A stretch of DNA of 41,232 nucleotides from an uncultured archaeon (GCA_964468895.1 CAYXWT010000002.1:1-41232); one strand, 5' to 3'. Counted from the first letter of the stretch, positions 1-38,881 are shown. Numbers and translations are program-made. The notes: generated by a model not told the origin, from the sequence alone.

Positions 1-268
1 AAGTTAATTTAGCATTTGGAAAACTAAAATCTAAAGGTACTAAAAAATAAAATTTTATTTATTTTTACCTTTATTAATTTTATTCCAAATATTATAAAAA
101 AAATCATAATATTTTTTTGCTATTCTTTCTGAAATTATTTCAAAAGCAATTGGATCTTCCCCCCATTGTGTCATTATAATTCTGTCTTTTCCAATAGTTA
201 AAAAAGCTGTTGCTAGCGGTTTAATTTCCGGCAGAGGACCTACAGGTGTTGCTGCAGCTGCTGCTTTA

Positions 269-529
269 ATGGAAGGTGAACGTAGAACTCAAAAAGAAGT
301 TGCTAATGTTGCTGGTGTTCATACTAATATCAGAAATAAGATTATGACAATTTTAAAATATTTAAAAAAACAAGGTGAAACAATTCTTTTAATAGAACAT
401 GATATATATTTTACTTTTAATGTTTGTGATTATATAGTTGTTATGGATGAAGGAAAAATAATTGCAAATGGAAAACCAAAAGATATTAAAAATAATAAAA
501 AAGTATTAGATGCATATCTTGGTAACTAA
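269..529 (+). pseudogene. C-terminal fragment of a LivG-like branched-chain amino acid ABC transporter ATP-binding protein (remnant)
   Basis: The 86-aa ORF ends ...ETILLIEHD...DEGKIIANGKPKDIKNNKKVLDAYLGN. This resembles the LivG C-terminus (LLIEHDM ... AYLG). There is no Walker A or ABC signature upstream. The upstream frame runs into a stop, and an unrelated minus-strand fragment covers 62–290. Confidence 0.4.
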
Positions 530-552
530 AATTATTTAATTGTGGATATATT

Positions 553-1258
553 ATGTTAGAATTAAAAAATATTAATTCCGGATATAGAAAATCTAAGATA
601 TTAAAAGATGTGAATTTTTTTTATAGATTGTGGGCAAATTGTTTCTATTATTGGTCCAAACGGAGCTGGAAAATCTACTTTATTAAAATCTATATTTAAT
701 TTATGTGATATATATTCTGGAAAAGTAATTTATAAATCTAGGGATATAACTAGTTATCCAACTTCTGATTTAATAGATGAAGGAATTTGTTTTTCTATGC
801 AAGGTAGACCCATTTTTTCTAATTTAACAGTTTTAGAAAATCTTGAACTTGGATTATTTAATATAAATGATCTGAAAATAATAAATCAGAAACTAAAAGA
901 TGTATTTAATAGATTTCCATTATTAGAAAAAAAGAAAAATGAACTTGCTTTTACTCTTTCTGGTGGTCAACAACAAATACTTTCTATTGCAAGATCTCTT
1001 TTACAAGATCCTGAAGTTCTACTTTTAGACGAACCATCTTTAGGCCTTGACCCTAAAACTCAAAAACAAATTTTTAATATAATTAAAGATATTAATAAAA
1101 GTGGTGTTACTATTATTATGGTTGAACAGAATGCAAAACAAGCAGTAGAGATATCTTATTTAGTTTATATTTTAGAAAATGGAAAAGTTATTTTAAAAGG
1201 AAACAAAGATATTTTAAAAAATAAAAAAATTAAAGAAATCTATTTTGGTGGTAGATAG
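553..1258 (+). pseudogene. livF: LivF-like ABC transporter ATP-binding protein, frameshifted in a T8 homopolymer at about 615–622
   Basis: The N-terminal piece (frame of ATG 553) reads MLELKNINSGYRKSKILKDVNFF and then terminates. Removing one T from the T8 run gives ...DCGQIVSIIGPNGAGKSTLLKSIFN... (Walker A), continuous with ORF 797–1258. That ORF carries the ABC signature LSGGQQQ, Walker B LLLDEPSLGLD and the H-loop region. Confidence 0.6.
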
Positions 1259-2347: not shown

Positions 2348-2394
2348 CTTTTTGTTAAAACATATATTTATATATATTTTTAATAATAATTATT

Positions 2395-2416
2395 TTGTAA
2401 ACACATGTGTTTACAA
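2395..2416. promoter_or_regulatory. perfect 22-bp palindrome (TTGTAAACACA|TGTGTTTACAA) between a TATA-like element and the RBS of the RHH antitoxin gene; putative TA operator
   Basis: The sequence is exactly self-complementary. It lies about 14 nt upstream of ATG 2430 and immediately 5' of a GGAGGT Shine-Dalgarno. This is the typical position for autoregulatory operators of RHH antitoxins. Confidence 0.5.
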
Positions 2417-2429
2417 TGGAGGTTTTATT

Positions 2430-2645
2430 ATGCTTCAAGTTCAATTAAGATTATCTCAAAATATTGTTGATAATTTAGATGGTATGATTTCTAAAGGTCT
2501 TTTTAAAAGTAGAAGTGATGCAATAAGATCTATTTTGCTTAAATATGAAGAAATTGAAAAAACTAGACATTTTTATACAGAATTAATTTGTAGAAGTAAA
2601 GAATCAAAAAATAAAAATAATTTGGTTGATTTTGAGGATTTATAG
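2430..2645 (+). CDS. ribbon-helix-helix (CopG/RHH) family antitoxin
   Basis: MLQVQLRLSQNIVDNLDGMISKGLFKSRSDAIRSIL is a classic RHH beta-strand plus two helices. GGAGGT RBS lies 6 nt upstream. The stop is 2 nt before the RelE-like gene start. The listed ORF at 2352 (TTG) is probably an over-extension. Confidence 0.6.
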   Translation: MLQVQLRLSQNIVDNLDGMISKGLFKSRSDAIRSILLKYEEIEKTRHFYTELICRSKESKNKNNLVDFEDL

Positions 2646-2647
2646 TT

Positions 2648-2914
2648 ATGAATTATATTGTTAAACTAAATAAAAAAGCATATAAAGAATATAATAAATT
2701 ATCATCTACTATTAAATTACAAATTAAAAATAAAATTTTAGAATTAAAAAATTCTAATTGTACAGGTAAGCATTTAAAATATTGTTCTTTTTGGTCTCTT
2801 AGAGTTGGAGATTATAGACTTATTTATGAAATTGAAAGTGATCATAAAACTATTCTAATTTTATTTATAGGTCATAGAAAAAAGGTTTATACAGATTTTT
2901 CAAAATTAATTTGA
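2648..2914 (+). CDS. relE: RelE/ParE-family type II toxin
   Basis: 88 aa. C-terminal LRVGDYRLIYEIESDHKTILILFIGHRKKVY matches the RelE/StbE core (vGdYRiiY ... il.IgHRkdvY). Gene is tightly coupled to the upstream RHH gene. Confidence 0.65.
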   Translation: MNYIVKLNKKAYKEYNKLSSTIKLQIKNKILELKNSNCTGKHLKYCSFWSLRVGDYRLIYEIESDHKTILILFIGHRKKVYTDFSKLI

Positions 2915-2999: not shown

Positions 3000-3683
3000 A
3001 TGAATGAGCCAAATCCTAAATTAATTAAATTATTTGAAAATTTAAATAAAAATCTTTATAGATCAAATAAAATAATTGAATTATATACACCACTAAGTGA
3101 AATATTAAATTCACTAAACACAGATTTAGAACAATTAGATTTAGTAAATAAAAAAGAAGAATATCTTCATGATCAAGTTGAAAAAGAAATTAAAAAAAGA
3201 GAATTAATTTCTTTGTATAGAAAAATGCAAGATGTTGTTTGTAATATTAAAGAGGAAGTAGATTATTTTTATGATCAAATTCATAAAGGTGAAGAGCTTT
3301 TTGAAAAATTTAGAAGTTATAGAACTTATATATTTGAAAATCCAAAAAAATCATTAGAATATTTAAAAAAATTAACTGAAAAGTTTAATATTATAGAATT
3401 TGTTTTAAAATTTAATGTAGTAGGAACTGTTGACTTAAATGAAGTTGCCGAACATATTAAAGGTAAAAAGTTTGGTATTGATATTGTTTTTCCTAAAGAT
3501 AATTTATATTTAATTTATGAAGAAATATTAAAATCTAAAAGTACTAAATTTAGATTAATTGCAGACCAAATAGTTATCTATTTTGAAAAAGATAATATTT
3601 TAAGAATAGAAGGTCCAAGTAAAAAAGTTAAACTTTGTGATATTATTTCAAAAGAATTTGATGTTAAATTATTAGATAATTAA
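3000..3683 (+). CDS. hypothetical protein (227 aa), no recognisable motif
   Basis: Clean ORF, convergent with the ATPase gene. GGATG context upstream. Confidence 0.45.
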   Translation: MNEPNPKLIKLFENLNKNLYRSNKIIELYTPLSEILNSLNTDLEQLDLVNKKEEYLHDQVEKEIKKRELISLYRKMQDVVCNIKEEVDYFYDQIHKGEELFEKFRSYRTYIFENPKKSLEYLKKLTEKFNIIEFVLKFNVVGTVDLNEVAEHIKGKKFGIDIVFPKDNLYLIYEEILKSKSTKFRLIADQIVIYFEKDNILRIEGPSKKVKLCDIISKEFDVKLLDN

Positions 3684-3710: not shown

Positions 3711-6278
3711 TTAATCTAAGAAAACATTAGCTGTTTTTCCTCCATCCCAAGTTAGTCTTGGTCTGATTTTTAATAACATTACTTTTTCAGAATTATCATC
3801 TATAAGTATAGCAAAACCTTTTGCTTTTGGCATTTGTGCATAAAATTTATCCATTGGTACATTAAGATAGCTTGGTCTTATTGAAGAAACAGCTGCTATA
3901 TCATCTTGAGCAGTCATTCTCATACTTAAAAAGAAATCACATTGACTTATTGCTTCTGAATGTAATTTGTTTGGTCTTTGTGTTGCTAGTAATAAAGAAA
4001 GACCTGGTTGCCTACCAACTCTAATCCAATTTAATAAAACATCTTGAGCTATACTTTGTCTATCTCTTGGCATAAACATGTGTGCTTCATCAATCATCAT
4101 CCAAATTATTGGCATTTCACTTGCTTTTTCTTTACCATTAAGTAAGTTTATTTCTTCTTCTTTTCTATAAAGCATTCTTTCTTCATATAATTTTTTACCT
4201 AATAAACCAACTATTAGTTCTTGAATAGATTCCATTCCGATACTAGTTTTGTATGTACTTACATCAATAACAGTAATTGTTGCTGGTCTTGCAAATTCTT
4301 TTGTAGTTGTACCTTGTTTAGAAAATAAGCCCCATGATTTTGCAACACCAAGTCTATTATTTAATGCATTAATTGTATCTTTTGTGTGTTCTGTGTTTTT
4401 TTTTGCAACATTTATTATATCTTCAATATCAAATATATTTCCAACTTTAGATCTTATAATTTCTAAAGTATTTGAAAGAAGTGCACTTTCAGGATCTTTC
4501 CAATTTAATTTAAATGTTGCAAGCCAATCTTCTATTTCCATTTGTGATGTTTTTATAGAAAAATATCCATCGTGAGGTAAATTTTTTTCAACATAAAATT
4601 CTTTTTTTCCAAATGGTACAAGATTTCTAATTTCTACACCTTCTGGTTTTAAACCCCATTTTTCAAGTAGCTTTTCATCTTCTTTGTTTGCATATTTCAT
4701 AGACCAAAATATACCAACAGTATCTATTACTATAACTGATAATCTTTCTTTTATTTCAAAAGGTTGTTTACAAAATTCTTCTATTAAAACAGACATTGTG
4801 TAACTATTATGTATTATTATATTATTTGCTATAAAATTATGTGTTTTTGGTATAGTTAAATCATAAACAGTGAAATTGCCTTTAATTTCTTTTATATCTA
4901 TAATTTCATCCCAAAATATATCAGATCTTGCAATCTTTAAAATCTCTTTATCTTTTAATATATTTCCTATTTTTTCTAATTTTTGTCTACTAGGAGAATA
5001 TTTAGTACTTGCTTTAAAAAGATTAGGAACTTTATAATTAAATCCATGTCCTAGTTTCTTCCAATCATTTATTTTTAAAATTGCCCATATTTCTTTTGGT
5101 ATAGTATCTACATTTGGATTTCTATTTTTAGAGTCTTTTATATTTTTAAGTTTGTTCTTTTTTGCTCCATATAGACCAATTTCTTTTTTGAATATATAAT
5201 TAAATTTGCGTAAAATTTTCAATTCATAATTGTCATGTTTTAGGGTTTTCTTTTTCCTAAAGATAGATATTATTCCAAATCTTAGAAGTAAACTTTGAAC
5301 TTGTTTTATCATAATTTTTGAAGAAGATGAATATGTAATAGAACCTCTATTTTTGTCAAAATATATAGATCCATCACAACTAAATAATCTGTTTAAAAAG
5401 ATAGCAATATTTTCTTTTTTTTGTTTAAATATTAATTCAGGGATTTCCCTTTCAATTGCATATTTATTATATAATTCTAGCTTTTCTAAAAATTTTCTTA
5501 ATTTATTTTTTTTATCAAATTCTATATTTTTAGAGAACTTACCATTATTTCTAATATTTTTGGTAATTGTTCTTTTGATATTATCATCAACTACTCTAAA
5601 AGTATATTTGGAATGATTTTTTAAGGAAAGATTAGAATCAAATTTTTTAATACATTTTTTAAATTCACTTTGTATTTTTTCATCTTTGTTTGTAAACAAT
5701 ATAAAAGAATTTCTAAGATGACCTTCAGCTAGTAAATATGCTAATATTTTTATAATTTCTTTTTTATCATTTGATTTTCCAAATAGATTTAAGGATCTAG
5801 GTGTTGCAATACGACTATTTACATTTAAATCTTTTATTGGAATCCACCCATTTATTGTAAGTAATGGGTGCTCTGGAGTTAGTTCTAATTCTTTACCTGT
5901 TCTTAATTTTATTTTTAATATCTTTCTACATTTTCTAGAATAAAATTTATCAATGTTTTTAGTTATTATTTTTAGATTATTAGTTAACGTTGCAATTTTT
6001 TTAGTACTATTTTTTAATTCTTTAATTGTTTTTTCAGTTCCATCTGCAAGTGTTATTAGTGTGTTTTCGCATATACATTTTCCCCCACCACGTTTTCCAC
6101 AAACAATTGCAACATGTGAACGTGATAGATCCATTAATACTTTTTTACCTAATACAGGATCATCTCCACCACTAACAACAACTTTACCAATATACCCAGT
6201 TGCCTTTTCTCCATATCTTTTAAGTTGTGAAGATGTTCTTCCAACAACTATTGTTTTTTCACCTAAGTCTAATGGCAT
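3711..6278 (-). CDS. HerA/FtsK-superfamily (DUF87-like) P-loop ATPase precursor containing an intein in the Walker A motif
   Basis: N-extein ...HVAIVCGKRGGGK is followed by the intein; the C-extein resumes S..., giving GKRGGGKS (GxxxxGKS) after splicing. Walker B IIWMMIDEAHMF. ATQRP motif characteristic of HerA/FtsK/VirB4-type ATPases. Extein is about 431 aa. Confidence 0.75.
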   Translation of the reverse strand: MPLDLGEKTIVVGRTSSQLKRYGEKATGYIGKVVVSGGDDPVLGKKVLMDLSRSHVAIVCGKRGGGKCICENTLITLADGTEKTIKELKNSTKKIATLTNNLKIITKNIDKFYSRKCRKILKIKLRTGKELELTPEHPLLTINGWIPIKDLNVNSRIATPRSLNLFGKSNDKKEIIKILAYLLAEGHLRNSFILFTNKDEKIQSEFKKCIKKFDSNLSLKNHSKYTFRVVDDNIKRTITKNIRNNGKFSKNIEFDKKNKLRKFLEKLELYNKYAIEREIPELIFKQKKENIAIFLNRLFSCDGSIYFDKNRGSITYSSSSKIMIKQVQSLLLRFGIISIFRKKKTLKHDNYELKILRKFNYIFKKEIGLYGAKKNKLKNIKDSKNRNPNVDTIPKEIWAILKINDWKKLGHGFNYKVPNLFKASTKYSPSRQKLEKIGNILKDKEILKIARSDIFWDEIIDIKEIKGNFTVYDLTIPKTHNFIANNIIIHNSYTMSVLIEEFCKQPFEIKERLSVIVIDTVGIFWSMKYANKEDEKLLEKWGLKPEGVEIRNLVPFGKKEFYVEKNLPHDGYFSIKTSQMEIEDWLATFKLNWKDPESALLSNTLEIIRSKVGNIFDIEDIINVAKKNTEHTKDTINALNNRLGVAKSWGLFSKQGTTTKEFARPATITVIDVSTYKTSIGMESIQELIVGLLGKKLYEERMLYRKEEEINLLNGKEKASEMPIIWMMIDEAHMFMPRDRQSIAQDVLLNWIRVGRQPGLSLLLATQRPNKLHSEAISQCDFFLSMRMTAQDDIAAVSSIRPSYLNVPMDKFYAQMPKAKGFAILIDDNSEKVMLLKIRPRLTWDGGKTANVFLD
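4806..6077 (-). mobile_element. intein (424 aa) with LAGLIDADG homing endonuclease domain inside the ATPase gene
   Basis: Begins CICENTLITLADG (block A, Cys1). Ends NNIIIHN followed by Ser+1 (block G). Internal LAGLIDADG-type motifs ILAYLLAEGH and FLNRLFSCDGS. Junctions are in frame with the extein. Confidence 0.8.
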
Positions 6279-6293
6279 AAATATTCCTTCTAT

Positions 6294-6983
6294 TTATTTG
6301 TAAATAATTTTTTTTTGAATTTTGTTAAGATTATCTAATAAAGATATGATTGTTTTGTAGATCACATATAAACACATAATAATTAGTAATAAATAAAGTA
6401 CAATTATAAAAACATAACTAATAATTTGGAAATTTATTAAAAATATAAAAAATATTTTGGCAAGATAAACTTCTATTAGTACACCTATAAATAAAGATGA
6501 TAATGACACATAAAATAATAATATGTCTGTTTTATTAAATATATTTATTTTTATAATTAAATTCTTTTTATTAATATTAAGTAATATGTTTACTATTTTT
6601 AAAATGATAAATAATAATATTTTTATTCCAATAGTTGCAAATATAATAAAAAATATAAAATAAAATACTTCTGGTATCAATTGTACTAATAATTTAATTT
6701 GTCCTAAAAAACTAGATGTTAATAAATAAGAATGTCCTATTCCATATTTTATAGAATCTATTAAATATGAAAATGGAATAAATATTTTTTCAAAACCTAT
6801 ATTTATATTATTAATAAATACTTCTTTAAAATTTATTGAATTTGAAAGTAAAAATAATTTTGTATTTATAAGATTTTGGTTTATAGTACCAGTAATAGAA
6901 TAAATTATACCTATTATTAAACCTACAAAATAAGCTAATCCAAAAGTTGAAGCAATAAATTTATAGAAATTATCTATTTTCAT
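6294..6983 (-). CDS. polytopic integral membrane protein (about 6 predicted TM helices), immediately upstream of and co-directional with the ATPase
   Basis: 229 aa, strongly hydrophobic segments throughout. Stop is 16 nt before the ATPase start, so probably an operon. Confidence 0.55.
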   Translation of the reverse strand: MKIDNFYKFIASTFGLAYFVGLIIGIIYSITGTINQNLINTKLFLLSNSINFKEVFINNINIGFEKIFIPFSYLIDSIKYGIGHSYLLTSSFLGQIKLLVQLIPEVFYFIFFIIFATIGIKILLFIILKIVNILLNINKKNLIIKINIFNKTDILLFYVSLSSLFIGVLIEVYLAKIFFIFLINFQIISYVFIIVLYLLLIIMCLYVIYKTIISLLDNLNKIQKKIIYK

Positions 6984-7096
6984 AGTAAGATATATTATAG
7001 AAGTATTTTAAAATATAAGTTTTTAAAATTATATGTTGTAAACTTTTTAAATAAGAGGTTTTAAAAAATATTTTATTATTATTAGTATTTAATTAA

Positions 7097-8470
7097 ATGA
7101 TTATTATGTTAAGAAAAAAATTAAATTTATATAATAATGCTATTAGTTCTTTAATTGCTACTATCTTGTTAGTTGTGGTTTCTGTAGTTGTTGTAATAAT
7201 AATTTTAAATTTTAGTAAAACTTTTACTAATTCATCTATAAGCAAAGTTAGTAATATTAATAATAGTACTCTTGCAGATGTTAAAATGTATTTGCATGGT
7301 GAAGAAAGTAAAAATGGAAGACTTTTTTTTAAATATAATCCTTCTGAAAAATTAAAAAATAGAATTATAAGTGTTTATGGTTATAGTTTATTTGATTATC
7401 CCAGAATAGATTTTAATACTCCAATTGTTTTAATAGAAGGTCTTAATACTTTAGATGTAGGTATAATTTCTGAAACTTACAATTTGGTTTTATATTTAGA
7501 TAATGATTATGAAGTGTTTTTATCTAATATTAAAAACACAAATAAATATCCTAATAGTTGTCCTGATGGCTATATTTCAGTACCTGGTAATGCGCTTTAT
7601 AATACAAATTATCCTAGTACAGGTGGTTTTTGCATTATGCAATATGAAGCTAAAGTTGATGAAAATAATGATGGTATTGGAGATAGTAATCTAGATTGTA
7701 AATATGCTGTAGGTGATGCTTGGCAAACACAAAATTCTGGTGGTCTTATTAATGAAGGTTGTGAAATAGATTATGGTAATAGAAATCTTGTAAGTAGTGC
7801 AGAAGGATATCCTATTAATTATATTGCAAGTGATTATAATGTAGATTATAATTCCGATTATATAGATGCAAAAGATCTTTGTTCTGGTTTAGGTAGTAAT
7901 TATCATTTAACTACAAATGAAGAATGGATGACTATTGCAAGAAATATAGAATTGCAATCAGAAAATTGGAGCGGTGGAGAAGTTGGCTCTGGAAAAATAA
8001 AAAAAGGAAATATAGGTTATAATGAAACTGATGTTTCTTATAAAAATGGTACTTTAGAAATAGTATATACTCCTAAAACTGTAAGTGATGTTACTGCTAA
8101 ATTAATTTTAAGTAATAATTCAGAAATTTGGGATTTTAGTGGTAATCTTAATGAATGGGTAGATAAAAAAACTCAAAGACAAAATTTACCTCAATCTAAT
8201 GAATCTCCTTTTGCAGAATATCCTGAAATTACAGATTATAGTTCTTTAAATTATGAAGATTTATTTTCTCTTAATAGTGATTGGGATAATGATCAAGGAT
8301 TAGGTGAAGTTTATATTTATTATGATGCTGAAAATACAGATTTCAGATCTTGGCTAAGAGGTGGTTGTTATGCGGCTATGACTCATGCTGGAGTTTATTT
8401 GATTGATTGGCAATATAGTACTGCACAACAAATATATAGCACTGGTTTTCGTTGTGTTTATGTTCCTTAA
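7097..8470 (+). CDS. pilin-like / signal-anchored surface protein with C-terminal FGE-sulfatase (SUMF1)/DUF1566-type C-lectin-fold domain
   Basis: N-terminus MLRKKLNLYNNAISSLIATILLVVVSVVVVIIIL is a basic stretch plus a single hydrophobic helix (class III/pilin-like or type II signal anchor). C-terminal domain motifs: HLTTNEEWMTIAR, NLNEWVDKK, LRGGCYAAMTHAGVY, terminal GFRCVYVP. These are characteristic of the FGE-sulfatase/DUF1566 fold. Confidence 0.65.
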   Translation: MIIMLRKKLNLYNNAISSLIATILLVVVSVVVVIIILNFSKTFTNSSISKVSNINNSTLADVKMYLHGEESKNGRLFFKYNPSEKLKNRIISVYGYSLFDYPRIDFNTPIVLIEGLNTLDVGIISETYNLVLYLDNDYEVFLSNIKNTNKYPNSCPDGYISVPGNALYNTNYPSTGGFCIMQYEAKVDENNDGIGDSNLDCKYAVGDAWQTQNSGGLINEGCEIDYGNRNLVSSAEGYPINYIASDYNVDYNSDYIDAKDLCSGLGSNYHLTTNEEWMTIARNIELQSENWSGGEVGSGKIKKGNIGYNETDVSYKNGTLEIVYTPKTVSDVTAKLILSNNSEIWDFSGNLNEWVDKKTQRQNLPQSNESPFAEYPEITDYSSLNYEDLFSLNSDWDNDQGLGEVYIYYDAENTDFRSWLRGGCYAAMTHAGVYLIDWQYSTAQQIYSTGFRCVYVP

Positions 8471-8541: not shown

Positions 8542-8826
8542 CTATTGTGTTTTAAAGTCTACTTTCTTCATTCTTTTTGGTATTACAAAATATGTCTTTT
8601 GTTTACAAATTTGACATTCTGCAACCCATACTGGTTTTTTATTTTGTTTTTTAACACCTTTAATATGTTTAGCCATACCACCGTAACCACTTTTGTGTTT
8701 AGCTTTATTTTTTCTTGTACCTTTAGCATTTGTTCTTGCTTTCTTTGCTTTATATGCTTTAAGTTTATGTTCTTGGTGTGCGTTACATTTTTTACAGTAA
8801 ATTTTAATAATTTTTGGTATTTCCAT
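8542..8826 (-). CDS. rpl44e: 50S ribosomal protein L44e (eL42)
   Basis: IYCKKCNAHQEHK...KHKSGYGGMAKHI...CQICKQK is the L44e zinc-ribbon signature (YCxKC ... QSGYGGQ ... CxxC). 94 aa. Confidence 0.85.
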   Translation of the reverse strand: MEIPKIIKIYCKKCNAHQEHKLKAYKAKKARTNAKGTRKNKAKHKSGYGGMAKHIKGVKKQNKKPVWVAECQICKQKTYFVIPKRMKKVDFKTQ

Positions 8827-36938: not shown

Positions 36939-38881
36939 ATGATTCTAACAAATTATTTTCTAAAGCCTAAATGTAAATCTGATTCTAAAAAAGTATCAGC
37001 TCTTTAATTGCAGTTATTCTCTTAGTTTTGGTGGTTGTGGTTTTAATAACTATTATATTAAATTGGAGTAAATTATTTACTAACAAACAATTAATTCAAA
37101 CAAATAATTTTGCAACAGAAAGTATAGCTGTTCAAGATTCTACTTTAATGTTAAAAACAGAACTTGCTGCTTCATCAAACTATACATAAAGAATAATTGT
37201 TAAAAATATAACTTCTAACACTACTGGTATTTTAACTGGTTATAAAATACTAGTTACTGAAAATCCTAATGATTATAATTTTTTAAATACAAAAATAGAT
37301 TTTGATACAGAGGTAACTGTGTTACCTGGAAATATAAATAACTTTGAAGTAGTTTGTTTTCCTTCTAGAAAATTTGATTTGTTACTTTACACAAATCATA
37401 ATACTACAGAAAAAATAACAGTTAATGTAAATATTTATGATCCTTTATCTTGTGCTCAATATGATGCCAATATTAACCTACCAATAATAAGTAGTGTAGT
37501 TTCTAATAATAGTGGTATTTATAGTGATGGAGATGAAATTAATCTAACTGTTACTAGTAATGCTACTGGTCAAAACTTAACAGCTGATTTTTCAGAAATA
37601 GATTCTAATTATGATGTTGGTGAAGAAGTAGTAACTGATAATGATAATAAAACTTATAATATAGTTTATACAATATTAGTATATAATATTCGTTGTGATT
37701 CTTTTTATGATATTAATATAACAGCAACAGATGATTTTGATTTTAGTGATAGTGAAACTGAAAATGTTGAATTAGATAATGTGGCTCTAAATGTTACTGT
37801 TAATCTATTAACTACAACCGTTACTGCTCCTGATTTAAATGGGACTATTAATGATTCAATAGCAACTCTTAGTTTGGTTGTAGATGGAGAAACTTATACT
37901 CCAACTAATAATGGAGATGATACTTGGAGTCTAACAAATGTAAATGAACTTGAAGCTGGTACTTATGATGTTAATATTTGTGCAACTGATAGTATTGGAA
38001 ATGTAGTTTGTGATAATAGTGTTAATGAATTAGTTATAGAAGAAGTTATAGAAGACTTAACTTGTCCGAATGGTTACGTGTTAGTACCAAATGACCTTAC
38101 TTATAACACAGGAGACTTTTGTGTAATGCAATTTGAAGCAAAAGTTGATCAAAATAGTGATGGTATTGGAGATAGTAATAGTTTTTGTCAATATGATTCT
38201 TATCATGTTTGGGGTAATGATACTAATGGCTGTTCTTATACTGAACCTGGAAGATCAGTTATAAGTACAATAGAAGGTTATCCTTTAGCTTATATTAGTT
38301 GGATAAATGCTAAAGCTGCTTGTGAAAGTATTGGGACAGGTTATCATTTAATAACTAATGATGAATGGATGACAATTGCTAGAAATATAGAATCTCAAGG
38401 TGAAAATTGGAGTACAGGTACTGTTGGCTTAGGATATATTCCACGAGGTAATAGTGGATGTAATTGGGCTATTGATGGTACTACTGTTTTGATTGGAATA
38501 CATCAGAGAAATTTAATATTAAGTAATGGAAATGAAATTAATGATCTTGTAGGAAATGTTGCTGAGTGGGTAGATAAAACCATTACTAGAGGGAATCTGC
38601 CTCAGCCTCAACCATATAATTCAAGTTTAGAATATGATGATATATTAAGTTATGGTTCACTTAATAGAGATGCCTACGATTTTGCAATAGGTAAAGACTA
38701 TAATTCTGATAATAGTATAGGTGTCTTGAATAATAATTATCTTGCTGGTTCATTACATGTAGTGCCTTTTGTGCGTGGTGGTGATTGGTGGAAGGAGGCA
38801 GGTGCAGGTATTTTGACTTTAAGCTTATACTTTGACTGTCCGGTCATACAGTATGGTTTTCGTTGTTCTGTAGGATCATAA
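36939..38881 (+). pseudogene. disrupted paralog of the 7097–8470 pilin-like FGE/DUF1566-domain surface protein
   Basis: After ATG about 36939 the frame shifts within an A6 tract (36987–36992); adding one A gives MILTNYFLKPKCKSDSKKSISSLIAVILLVLVVVVLITIIL, homologous to the paralog N-terminus. An in-frame TAA at about 37187 follows. ORF 37319–38881 then encodes a long Thr/Asn-rich repeat region and the conserved C-terminal domain (CPNGYVLVP...FCVMQFEAKVDQNSDGIGDSN...HLITNDEWMTIARNIE...GNVAEWVDK...RGGDWW...GFRCSVGS). Confidence 0.6.

What the first reader, a model, noticed from the sequence alone, without database searches (positions are those of the whole stretch)
3711..8470. Divergent module: intein-split HerA/VirB4-like ATPase, polytopic membrane protein and pilin-like lectin-domain surface protein
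The operon pair has a 229-aa multi-TM protein (6294–6983) immediately upstream of a DUF87/HerA/FtsK-type ATPase (3711–6278). The ATPase carries GKRGGGK|S, DEAH-like Walker B and ATQRP. The pair is divergently transcribed from a pilin-like protein with a large C-terminal lectin-fold domain (7097–8470). A HerA/VirB4-family ATPase plus a VirB6-like membrane protein plus a pilin is the architecture of the archaeal Ced/Ted DNA-import systems and of conjugation-like machineries. The surface partner here is a lectin-type adhesin rather than a VirB2-like pilin, and the ATPase has no TM segment. This could be a DNA or protein translocation or host-attachment apparatus of a reduced-genome (possibly episymbiotic) archaeon. 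Such a combination is not a described system as far as I know.
Basis: partly seen in the sequence, partly recalled or inferred. Interest (0 to 1): 0.75.

Follow-up and report, generated by a model that had tools for sequence, protein, structure and literature searches.

The report
Intein-split HerA-type ATPase, not a pilus machine
The three genes are not one apparatus: a conserved two-gene operon (a membrane protein and an intein-interrupted HerA-type ring ATPase that looks like a housekeeping gene in these tiny archaea) sits beside a pilin-like adhesin gene that was inserted there independently.

Summary
All three ORFs, the intein and the ATPase motifs are present as described. The three genes are not a module.

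- **Pilin-like gene (7097-8470).** It is absent from this position in all 11 close relatives, where rpl44e directly abuts the membrane-protein gene. It belongs to a multi-copy family of archaeal type IV pilin N-termini fused to an FGE-sulfatase/C-type-lectin-like head, scattered through DPANN genomes.
- **ATPase.** The spliced ATPase is 431 aa and belongs to a distinct, uncharacterised HerA-clade subfamily. It is 50-84% identical across Iainarchaeia with near-constant length. It always lies in housekeeping surroundings, never beside NurA/Mre11/Rad50. Inteins recur at its Walker A and Walker B motifs.
- **Relatives.** They occur in other DPANN lineages, there beside RFC-L, FEN1 and PolB genes. 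In Asgard archaea they sit inside the ESCRT-III/Vps4 cluster. Some are fused to winged-helix DNA-binding domains.
- **Membrane protein (6294-6983).** It is a conserved operon partner only in one narrow clade and matches no known family.

Most likely the ATPase is a chromosomal ring translocase acting on DNA, possibly coupled to cell division like FtsK and membrane-tethered in this clade. Only the anatomy and synteny are shown; the function is inferred. A Ced/Ted-like DNA importer is not supported.

The parts
3711..6278 (-). Precursor of the HerA-clade ATPase (855 aa): N-extein + intein + C-extein
   Evidence: ORF. Pfam and NCBIfam results. More than 2000 homologues.
6078..6278 (-). N-extein (residues 1-67): short beta-rich N-terminal region and Walker A up to GKRGGGK
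   Evidence: Sequence; motif position; AF2 model.
4806..6077 (-). Intein (residues 68-491, 424 aa), Cys1 ... His-Asn, +1 Ser. Contains a LAGLIDADG homing-endonuclease domain at residues 291-368 (nt 5175-5408).
   Evidence: Pfam Intein_splicing E 6.6e-30 and LAGLIDADG_3 E 1.6e-16. The same insertion site is used in 18 of 80 related loci.
3711..4805 (-). C-extein (residues 492-855) plus stop codon. Holds the RecA-like core with a helical insert, Walker B MIDEAH, ATQRP, and a conserved RPRxxWDGG tail.
6294..6983 (-). TM229: 5-6-TM protein, upstream operon partner of the ATPase (15-nt gap). The family is restricted to one narrow Iainarchaeial clade.
   Evidence: 12 homologues at 41-50% identity, always at -1 on the same strand. 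No Pfam, NCBIfam, PADLOC or PDB match.
8542..8826 (-). Ribosomal protein L44e gene. In all close relatives it directly precedes TM229 and the ATPase on the same strand.
   Evidence: Pfam Ribosomal_L44; synteny.
7097..8470 (+). Type IV pilin-like surface protein with an FGE-sulfatase/C-type-lectin-like C-terminal domain. It is an independent insertion between rpl44e and TM229 and not part of the ATPase unit.
   Evidence: 445 homologues labelled 'flagellin-like' or 'archaellin/type IV pilin N-terminal', many with PF03781. N-terminal motif. Absent at this position in 11 of 11 relatives.
3000..3683 (+). CC227: conserved convergent downstream neighbour of the ATPase across Iainarchaeia. It has a four-helix N-terminal part and two ferredoxin-like alpha/beta units. 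Function unknown.
2352..2914 (+). RHH antitoxin / ParE toxin pair, a second local insertion relative to close relatives (lies between CC227 and thioredoxin reductase).
   Evidence: Pfam ParE_toxin E 7.9e-11 and RHH_1. No ParE match in the 84 related loci then held.

Best explanation
The region holds two unrelated things.

(A) A chromosomal, vertically inherited operon, TM229 -> ATPase; in relatives it reads rpl44e -> TM229 -> ATPase. The ATPase is made as an 855-aa precursor. A LAGLIDADG intein sits between the Lys and Ser of the P-loop, and splicing must remove it to give an active 431-aa enzyme. That enzyme belongs to a discrete archaeal subfamily of the HerA clade of the FtsK-HerA superfamily.

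I infer that it forms a hexameric ring that uses ATP to pump double-stranded DNA. I infer that it acts on the cell's own chromosome in a housekeeping role. The most likely role is clearing or segregating DNA in coordination with replication and cell division, analogous to FtsK. In this particular clade the co-transcribed polytopic protein TM229 would hold the ring at the membrane.

(B) An independently inserted gene for a type IV pilin-like protein whose globular head is an FGE-sulfatase/C-type-lectin-like domain. It is one of several scattered paralogues and is plausibly a surface adhesin displayed on or as a type IV pilus.

Shown: gene structures, the intein, HerA-clade membership by HMM and fold, conservation, and synteny patterns.

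Inferred: the hexamer, DNA as substrate, the link to division, the membrane tether, and the adhesin role.
For: HerA-clade membership:
- Pfam DUF87 is above its cut-off on the spliced protein.
- The best NCBIfam, PADLOC and PDB sequence hits are all HerA.
- All of the Foldseek top 50 are HerA-type ATPases (HerA or TdpA).

Housekeeping character:
- More than 2000 homologues; the best 120 are 53-84% identical and nearly all full-length ones are 429-449 aa.
- At least 576 matching stretches in the one-genome-per-species collection.
- Neighbours are Alba, r-proteins, tRNA synthetases and cysteine desulfurase.
- No second HerA-like gene lies within 8 kb in about 170 loci, and none of the conserved neighbour families or the larger window ORFs scanned is NurA, Mre11 or Rad50.
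- No phage hit, and only one full-length plasmid hit.
- Inteins sit at Walker A in 18 of 80 loci, and at Walker B in further relatives.

Link to DNA and division:
- The 436-aa DPANN forms sit beside RFC-L (21 loci), FEN1 (17) and PolB (11).
- Longer relatives fuse the module to winged-helix domains (TrmB/MarR/ArsR), with or without an inactive-KaiC domain.
- A coiled-coil + wHTH gene lies upstream in 47 of 80 Iainarchaeial loci.
- Asgard homologues are alignable end to end: 31% identity, E 8e-70 over residues 11-426.
- Those Asgard genes lie between or beside Snf7/ESCRT-III genes, next to Vps4 and ESCRT-II, in 5 distinct loci.

TM229 pairing: found in 12 of 12 close-clade loci, with gaps of 3-15 nt.

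Pilin gene as an insertion.
Against: - No experiment or direct test of substrate exists.
- Gene order within Iainarchaeia is conserved generally (Alba, rpl44e). Adjacency of TM229 or CC227 may therefore reflect inheritance, not function.
- TM229 is absent from L013 (ATPase 70% identical) and from all of the more distant relatives examined, so a membrane tether cannot be essential to the subfamily.
- The ESCRT linkage holds for 5 of 7 Asgard-type loci only. It is not seen for the DUF835/wHTH forms, and Iainarchaeial neighbours show no similarity to Snf7.
- One haloarchaeal plasmid relative lies in a defence-like island.
- The short N-terminal region (about 55 aa) is not a clear HAS-barrel.
Confidence: 0.5

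Rival explanations
1. First reader's reading. ATPase + TM229 + pilin form a Ced/Ted- or conjugation-like envelope machine for DNA or protein transfer or host attachment. TM229 would be a VirB6/CedA-like pore and the pilin the surface filament.
For: - TM229 has 5-6 TM segments, comparable with the 6-7 of CedA (PMC9905601).
- CedA/TedA/VirB6 homology is known to be undetectable without profile-profile methods, so a negative HMM result for TM229 is not decisive.
Against: - The pilin gene is absent at this locus in 11 of 11 close relatives, and its homologues lie elsewhere.
- It is a type IV pilin, not a VirB2-like hairpin.
- TM229 is restricted to one clade and has no VirB6, plasmid or PDB match.
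- No VirB4 Pfam family was hit. NCBIfam VirB4_plasma scored 21 bits against a cut-off of 590.
- 50-84% conservation with fixed length and housekeeping synteny is unlike mobile or accessory transfer systems.
Confidence: 0.04
2. It is the lineage's DNA end-resection/repair HerA, working with a NurA-type nuclease and Mre11-Rad50 encoded elsewhere in the genome.
For: The closest solved structures are DSB-repair HerA from S. solfataricus, T. kodakarensis and D. radiodurans. The gene is a single copy in informational neighbourhoods.
Against: - It scores far below the NCBIfam HerA equivalog cut-offs (40 bits vs 970; 31 vs 800), and the matches cover only the Walker B region.
- None of the neighbour families or window ORFs scanned against Pfam is NurA, Mre11 or Rad50, whereas canonical herA is normally in that operon.
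- It is 431 aa with only about 55 residues before the P-loop, against about 500 aa with a full HAS-barrel.
- Asgard relatives sit in ESCRT clusters, not repair operons.
Confidence: 0.15
3. It is an anti-virus defence pair: a HerA-type ATPase plus an effector (TM229 as a membrane-disrupting effector, or CC227), like the SIR2-HerA or DUF4297-HerA systems.
For: - PADLOC HerA models hit at E 1.8e-21, over a partial region.
- The best NCBIfam hit is 'anti-phage-associated HerA'.
- A 31%-identical relative on a Haloplanus plasmid lies beside a BREX-type ATPase and a nuclease/helicase pair.
Against: - Defence systems are patchy and located in variable islands. This gene is near-universal in the clade, highly conserved and syntenic with housekeeping genes.
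- The hits cover only the generic C-terminal ATPase half and fall far below the cut-offs.
- TM229 and CC227 hit no PADLOC model.
- CC227 is convergent, not co-transcribed.
Confidence: 0.06
4. The ATPase-TM229 pair is a membrane motor for a non-DNA substrate, such as protein or polymer export or membrane remodelling. The informational-gene neighbourhood would be coincidental.
Against: Most members of the subfamily have no membrane partner. wHTH DNA-binding fusions and neighbours and the replication-gene neighbours point to DNA. The nearest structures are DNA translocases.
Confidence: 0.12

Closest known systems
HerA (archaeal/bacterial DNA translocase of the HerA-NurA complex; FtsK-HerA superfamily)
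   Different: About 70-150 aa shorter, with only about 55 residues ahead of the P-loop. It scores 40 bits against the 970-bit equivalog cut-off. It is never next to NurA/Mre11/Rad50. It forms its own subfamily of 297 clusters (50% identity) at E<=1e-30.
FtsK / SpoIIIE (bacterial division-coupled DNA translocase)
   Same: Same superfamily. It is the proposed analogue in function: a membrane-associated ring pump for chromosomal DNA, encoded here next to a polytopic membrane protein and, in Asgard relatives, inside the division/ESCRT gene cluster.
Ced/Ted DNA-import systems and VirB4/VirB6/VirB2 of type IV secretion
   Different: No VirB2-like pilin; the adjacent pilin is type IV and not syntenic. 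TM229 has no detectable VirB6/CedA similarity. The ATPase lacks the VirB4 N-terminal domain and VirB4 HMM hits. The inheritance pattern is chromosomal housekeeping.
Anti-phage HerA systems (SIR2-HerA, DUF4297-HerA, TdpAB)
   Same: Sequence and fold similarity of the ATPase core.
   Different: No SIR2, DUF4297 or nuclease partner. The gene is core-like and not in variable islands, apart from one haloarchaeal plasmid relative.
Archaeal type IV pilins / adhesive pilins with globular heads
   Same: A class III signal-peptide-like N-terminus and a hydrophobic helix identical in pattern to those of homologues annotated 'archaellin/type IV pilin N-terminal'.
   Different: The C-terminal head is an FGE-sulfatase (SUMF1)/C-type-lectin-like domain. 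No assembly ATPase, platform protein or prepilin peptidase was found among the larger window ORFs scanned against Pfam. The same head is fused to bacterial N-methyl prepilin leaders in Patescibacteria.

Membership tests
HerA clade, FtsK-HerA superfamily | DUF87/HerA central ATPase domain detectable by profile | tested here: met
   PF01935 E 5.9e-11, 43.3 bits, above the 23.2 cut-off, on the spliced protein.
HerA clade, FtsK-HerA superfamily | Intact Walker A, Walker B and conserved Arg/Gln motifs | tested here: met
   GKRGGGKS after splicing, MIDEAH and ATQRP. K67, S68, D306, E307, T342, Q343 and R344 are invariant in 25 sequences.
HerA clade, FtsK-HerA superfamily | HerA-like fold | tested here: met
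Canonical DSB-repair HerA | Equivalog-level sequence score | tested here: not met
   NF040819 40 bits vs 970; NF040937 31 bits vs 800.
Canonical DSB-repair HerA | Operon or neighbourhood with nurA, mre11, rad50 | tested here: not met
   None of the conserved neighbour families in the Iainarchaeial or metagenome loci, nor any of the larger window ORFs scanned, hit NurA, Mre11 or Rad50 in Pfam.
Canonical DSB-repair HerA | N-terminal HAS-barrel domain | tested here: inconclusive
   Only about 55 residues with 3 short strands precede the P-loop strand, and the pLDDT there is low (47-71).
Ced/Ted (VirB4-VirB6-VirB2 derived) DNA import | VirB4/CedB-type ATPase | tested here: not met
Ced/Ted (VirB4-VirB6-VirB2 derived) DNA import | VirB6/CedA-like 6-7-TM pore protein | tested here: inconclusive
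   TM229 has 5-6 TM segments but no hit in Pfam (E<=5, all 12 members), in a PDB profile search or in plasmids. No CedA/TedA sequences or structure model were available for a profile or fold comparison.
Ced/Ted (VirB4-VirB6-VirB2 derived) DNA import | VirB2/CedA1/TedC-like two-helix pilin in the cluster | tested here: not met
   The only pilin-like gene is a 457-aa type IV pilin with a class III signal. It is not syntenic. Definition taken from PMC9905601.
FtsK/SpoIIIE | FtsK_SpoIIIE motor domain, fused N-terminal TM domain, gamma domain | tested here: not met
Intein (class 1, with homing endonuclease) | Cys1, C-terminal His-Asn, nucleophilic +1 residue, Hint fold, LAGLIDADG domain | tested here: met
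   C68 ... H490-N491 | S492. PF14890 104 bits, PF14528 60.7 bits, TIGR01445 and TIGR01443.
Archaeal type IV pilin | Class III signal peptide and hydrophobic N-terminal helix | tested here: met
   NNA|ISSLIATILLVVVSVVVV aligns with K(A/S)|ISPLIATILLVVVAVAL of homologues named archaellin/type IV pilin N-terminal. Homologue P0176 carries PF07790. The window protein itself does not reach a Pfam Pilin_N hit.
Archaeal type IV pilin | Cognate assembly ATPase, platform protein or prepilin peptidase nearby | tested here: not met
   None among the larger window ORFs scanned against Pfam. These genes may be elsewhere in the genome.
FGE-sulfatase / SUMF1 domain (C-type-lectin-like fold) | PF03781 profile match | tested here: inconclusive
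   The window protein scores 18.2 bits, below 23.3 (E 0.002). Many 35-40%-identical homologues carry a precomputed PF03781 hit. Catalytic residues were not examined.

The most novel reading that the evidence does not exclude
This 431-aa HerA-clade subfamily is the long-sought archaeal counterpart of FtsK: a division-coupled chromosomal DNA pump. It would be coupled to ESCRT-III in Asgard archaea, where its gene lies between the two Snf7 genes next to Vps4. It would be tethered to the membrane by the separate protein TM229 in this Iainarchaeial clade. I found no mention of the ATPase in two ESCRT papers whose text I searched (PMC11188069, PMC9192718).
Probability: 0.2. Interest if true: 0.8.

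Novelty: new variant of a known kind. Interest (0 to 1): 0.45.

Why it matters
The proposed new DNA-import or attachment machine is not there, which removes a false lead. What remains is an uncharacterised, strongly conserved ring ATPase of genome-reduced archaea. It is retained even at about 1 Mb genome size and is targeted by inteins at both catalytic motifs. Its Asgard relatives sit inside the ESCRT-III/Vps4 gene cluster.

How archaea, and the Asgard relatives of eukaryotes in particular, keep DNA out of the closing division site is not known; I found no archaeal FtsK equivalent described. This family is a concrete, testable candidate. The pilin with an FGE/lectin-like head is shared in design between DPANN archaea and Patescibacteria. 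It is a candidate adhesin for symbiont-host contact, independent of the ATPase.

Tried and rejected
- **TM229 annotation.** No hit in any of these searches:
  - Pfam, NCBIfam and PADLOC on TM229 alone.
  - Pfam on all 12 family members at E<=5. My impression from memory of a SpoIIM/DUF95-like motif was therefore not confirmed.
  - A PDB profile search, which gave only chance TM hits.
  - tblastn against plasmids.
- **CC227.**
  - No Pfam or PDB sequence hit.
  - The JGI label 'site-specific DNA-adenine methylase' on a few homologues has no support.
- **Iainarchaeial neighbour families.** I tested whether the families (coiled-coil+wHTH, 157-aa, CC227, TM229) recur in the fused C-terminal regions of long relatives or in Asgard loci. 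HMM searches found none, apart from one marginal cross-hit of the CC227 model to a coiled-coil+wHTH family member (E 0.003). HHalign against Asgard Snf7 and against the conserved 304-350-aa downstream protein gave probability below 1%.
- **Literature.**
  - Iyer et al. 2004 is not held.
  - The 'dark matter' paper mentions only generic HerA.
  - The two ESCRT papers searched do not mention this ATPase.
  - No paper holds DUF87+ESCRT or pilin+DPANN+formylglycine.
- The AFDB fold library was unavailable.
- **Weak Vps4 hits.** The Vps4-HMM hits next to the 436-aa forms turned out to be the RFC large subunit, not Vps4.

Full report
**1. Observation**

The window is a 19-27% GC archaeal chromosome segment.

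The 855-aa product of 3711-6278(-) contains a canonical intein.
- It starts with Cys68 immediately after GKRGGGK and ends in His490-Asn491, followed by Ser492.
- Pfam gives Intein_splicing E 6.6e-30 and LAGLIDADG_3 E 1.6e-16. NCBIfam gives the intein N- and C-terminal models.
- Removing residues 68-491 gives a 431-aa protein with an intact P-loop GKRGGGKS, Walker B MIDEAH and ATQRP. It hits Pfam DUF87 (HerA central domain) above the gathering score.

The 229-aa product of 6294-6983(-) has 5-6 hydrophobic spans and ends 15 nt before the ATPase start.

The 457-aa product of 7097-8470(+) has an archaeal class III signal-peptide/type IV pilin N-terminus. It also has a weak FGE-sulfatase hit that many homologues confirm.

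**2. The ATPase family**

The spliced protein has more than 2000 database relatives.
- The best 120 are 53-84% identical, and nearly all full-length ones are 429-449 aa. Where named, they are from Diapherotrites/Iainarchaeum MAGs.
- A scan of one genome per species found at least 576 matching stretches. The best 80 are almost all Iainarchaeia, followed by Woesearchaeota, Nanoarchaeia and a 'Methanobacteriota' MAG at about 42% identity.
- A profile search of 1.8 billion cluster representatives gave 297 clusters at E<=1e-30. These include about 430-aa forms in Aenigmarchaeota and Nanoarchaeia, and longer forms.

By sequence the protein is HerA-clade but not canonical HerA.
- NCBIfam HerA equivalogs score 31-56 bits against cut-offs of 800-970, and only over the Walker B region.
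- VirB4_plasma scores 21 bits against 590. FtsK_SpoIIIE is below its cut-off.

An AlphaFold model (pLDDT 77) gives the structural picture.
- All of the Foldseek top 50 hits are HerA-type ATPases (HerA or TdpA).

**3. Synteny test of the proposed module**

I called ORFs in 84 related loci and searched them with the window's proteins.

- **TM229.** It is found in 12 loci including the window. It is always immediately upstream on the same strand. All these loci have an ATPase 73-84% identical to the window's. In those relatives rpl44e precedes TM229 by about 60 nt (e.g. L001: 4980-5264, 5323-5997, 6001-7296).
- **Limits of TM229.** L013 (ATPase 70% identical) keeps rpl44e but has no TM229. No more distant locus has it.
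- **Pilin-like gene.** It is absent from this position in all 11 relatives. Only L010 has a 30%-identical paralogue several kb away. A homologue in another genome lies between ArgRS and proteasome/exosome genes.
- **Pilin family.** It has 445 database members, several per genome. The same C-terminal domain is fused to bacterial N-methyl prepilin leaders in Patescibacteria.
- **Conclusion.** The pilin gene is an independent insertion between rpl44e and TM229. The ParE/RHH pair at 2352-2914 is likewise an insertion, between CC227 and thioredoxin reductase. A 6.3-kb JGI contig with identical proteins shows the same local order.

**4. What is conserved around the ATPase**

Across Iainarchaeia:
- The most frequent neighbours are a convergent 210-237-aa protein (CC227, window 3000-3683), in 36 loci and at +1 in 22.
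- An upstream coiled-coil + winged-helix protein of about 160 aa occurs in 47 loci.
- A 157-aa protein sits at -1 on the opposite strand in 15 loci.
- Alba occurs in 34 loci.
- These belong to a general synteny block, so adjacency alone is weak evidence of function.

CC227 forms a family of 116 clusters, all hypothetical. Its confident model (pLDDT 90.5) has a four-helix part and two ferredoxin-like units with no informative structural match.

None of the conserved neighbour families or larger window ORFs scanned against Pfam is NurA, Mre11 or Rad50. No second HerA-like gene lies within 8 kb in about 170 loci.

In the 436-aa forms from other DPANN (metagenome loci), the neighbours are replication genes. 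These are the RFC large subunit (21 loci), FEN1 (17), PolB (11) and Trm5 (27).

**5. Fusions and the Asgard context**

Longer relatives carry the whole 430-aa module plus other domains:
- DUF835, an inactivated KaiC domain (PMC5847659), together with TrmB/MarR/ArsR-type winged helices.
- A subtilase plus a winged helix.

Asgard forms (874-925 aa, with about 265 extra N-terminal residues) align end to end with the Iainarchaeial protein. Identity is 31% and E 8e-70. Their genes lie inside the ESCRT cluster:
- Lokiarchaeota GCA_004524205.1: ubiquitin, RING, E2/Vps23, EAP30, ESCRT-II, Vps4 | Snf7 -> ATPase -> Snf7.
- Promethearchaeota: ESCRT-II, Vps4 | Snf7 -> ATPase -> 344 aa ... ubiquitin, E2, E1.
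- Heimdall/Gerdarchaeota: ATPase -> 304 aa -> Snf7.
- Two further metagenome contigs show the same linkage.

That makes 5 of the 7 distinct loci with this architecture. The DUF835/wHTH forms show no such linkage. The two ESCRT papers whose text I could search do not mention the gene.

One haloarchaeal plasmid relative (31% identity) sits near a BREX-type ATPase and a nuclease/helicase pair. There are no phage hits.

**6. Inteins**

18 of 80 loci have an intein at exactly the same P-loop site. Other relatives have one at Walker B (DE|CH), and some have both.

From general knowledge, inteins concentrate in conserved sites of essential proteins that act on DNA or nucleotides. That fits a housekeeping role but does not prove one.

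**7. Interpretation**

The best-supported reading is that the ATPase is a core, chromosomally inherited HerA-clade ring translocase acting on DNA.
- An FtsK-like, replication- or division-coupled role is the most likely specific function.
- The support comes from wHTH fusions and neighbours, replication-gene neighbours and ESCRT-cluster embedding.
- TM229 would then be a clade-specific membrane anchor.
- Only anatomy, family placement and synteny are shown. The hexamer, the substrate and the cellular role are inferred.

Rivals:
- An unlinked-NurA repair HerA.
- A defence pair.
- A non-DNA membrane motor.
This last one fails on pilin type, synteny, ATPase family and inheritance pattern, using the definition in PMC9905601.

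**8. Novelty and score**

The claimed three-part system is not a real unit. What exists is a new variant within a known superfamily:
- an undescribed HerA-clade subfamily,
- two partner families with no known relatives (TM229, CC227),
- an ordinary intein,
- a pilin-adhesin of a widespread but little-studied DPANN/CPR design.

The ESCRT-cluster association of the Asgard relatives is the most interesting lead. It lies outside the window and rests on a handful of loci. Interest is 0.45.

Noticed in passing
L093:6346-10555; L089:3257-9667; L091:7001-11876; L096; L121: Asgard homologues of the ATPase (874-925 aa) lie inside the ESCRT gene cluster, between or beside Snf7/ESCRT-III genes and next to Vps4, ESCRT-II and ubiquitin-system genes. 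This holds in 5 distinct loci. The two ESCRT papers whose text I searched do not mention this gene.
   Followed up: partly
window 3000-3683 (+): A 227-aa protein convergent with the ATPase. It belongs to a 116-cluster family restricted to Iainarchaeia-type archaea. The AF2 model is confident (pLDDT 90.5): a helical bundle plus two ferredoxin-like units. No known family or informative fold match.
   Followed up: yes
window 2352-2914 (+): A ribbon-helix-helix antitoxin plus ParE-family toxin pair. It lies between CC227 and thioredoxin reductase. No ParE match was found in the 84 related loci then held, so it is a local insertion.
   Followed up: partly
window 37319-38881 (+): A second surface-type protein carrying a Big_13 Ig-like domain and a weak FGE-sulfatase-like domain. 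It is probably a paralogue of the head domain of the pilin-like protein.
   Followed up: no
proteins P0195, P0196, P0213, P0215, P0220 versus window 7097-8470: The same FGE-sulfatase-like head domain (about 35% identity over two thirds of the query) is fused to bacterial N-methyl prepilin leaders (FTLIELLVV). 'SUMF1/EgtB/PvdO' homologues also occur in Patescibacteria. DPANN archaea and CPR bacteria therefore share a pilin-adhesin design.
   Followed up: partly
proteins P0258, P0259, P0272, P0276, P0277 (relatives of the ATPase): A second intein insertion point at the Walker B motif (DE | C-HEFLP). Some relatives carry inteins at both Walker A and Walker B.
   Followed up: partly
loci L124-L174 (metagenome contigs with 436-aa forms): In other DPANN lineages the ATPase gene sits in a block with the RFC large subunit (upstream) and Trm5, FEN1 and PolB (downstream).
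   Followed up: partly
L175 (Haloplanus sp. HW8-1 plasmid NZ_CP098519.1, 116089-117258): A 389-aa relative (31% identity, E 6e-59) overlaps by 4 nt a 380-aa hypothetical gene. It lies near a 'BREX system ATP-binding' protein and a PD-(D/E)XK nuclease + helicase pair, a defence-island-like context unlike the DPANN ones.
   Followed up: partly
window 1-1258 (+): The two branched-chain-type ABC ATPase genes at the window start look degraded. The second has its N-terminus (MLELKNINSGY...) in one frame and its Walker A onward (IIGPNGAGKSTLLK...) in another. The first keeps only its C-terminal third.
   Followed up: partly
proteins P0298, P0308, P0343, P0334, P0324, P0300: Long relatives (700-1650 aa) fuse the ATPase module to DUF835 (inactive KaiC), SAP and TrmB/MarR/ArsR winged-helix domains, or to an N-terminal subtilase. 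The source organisms are mostly unnamed.
   Followed up: partly
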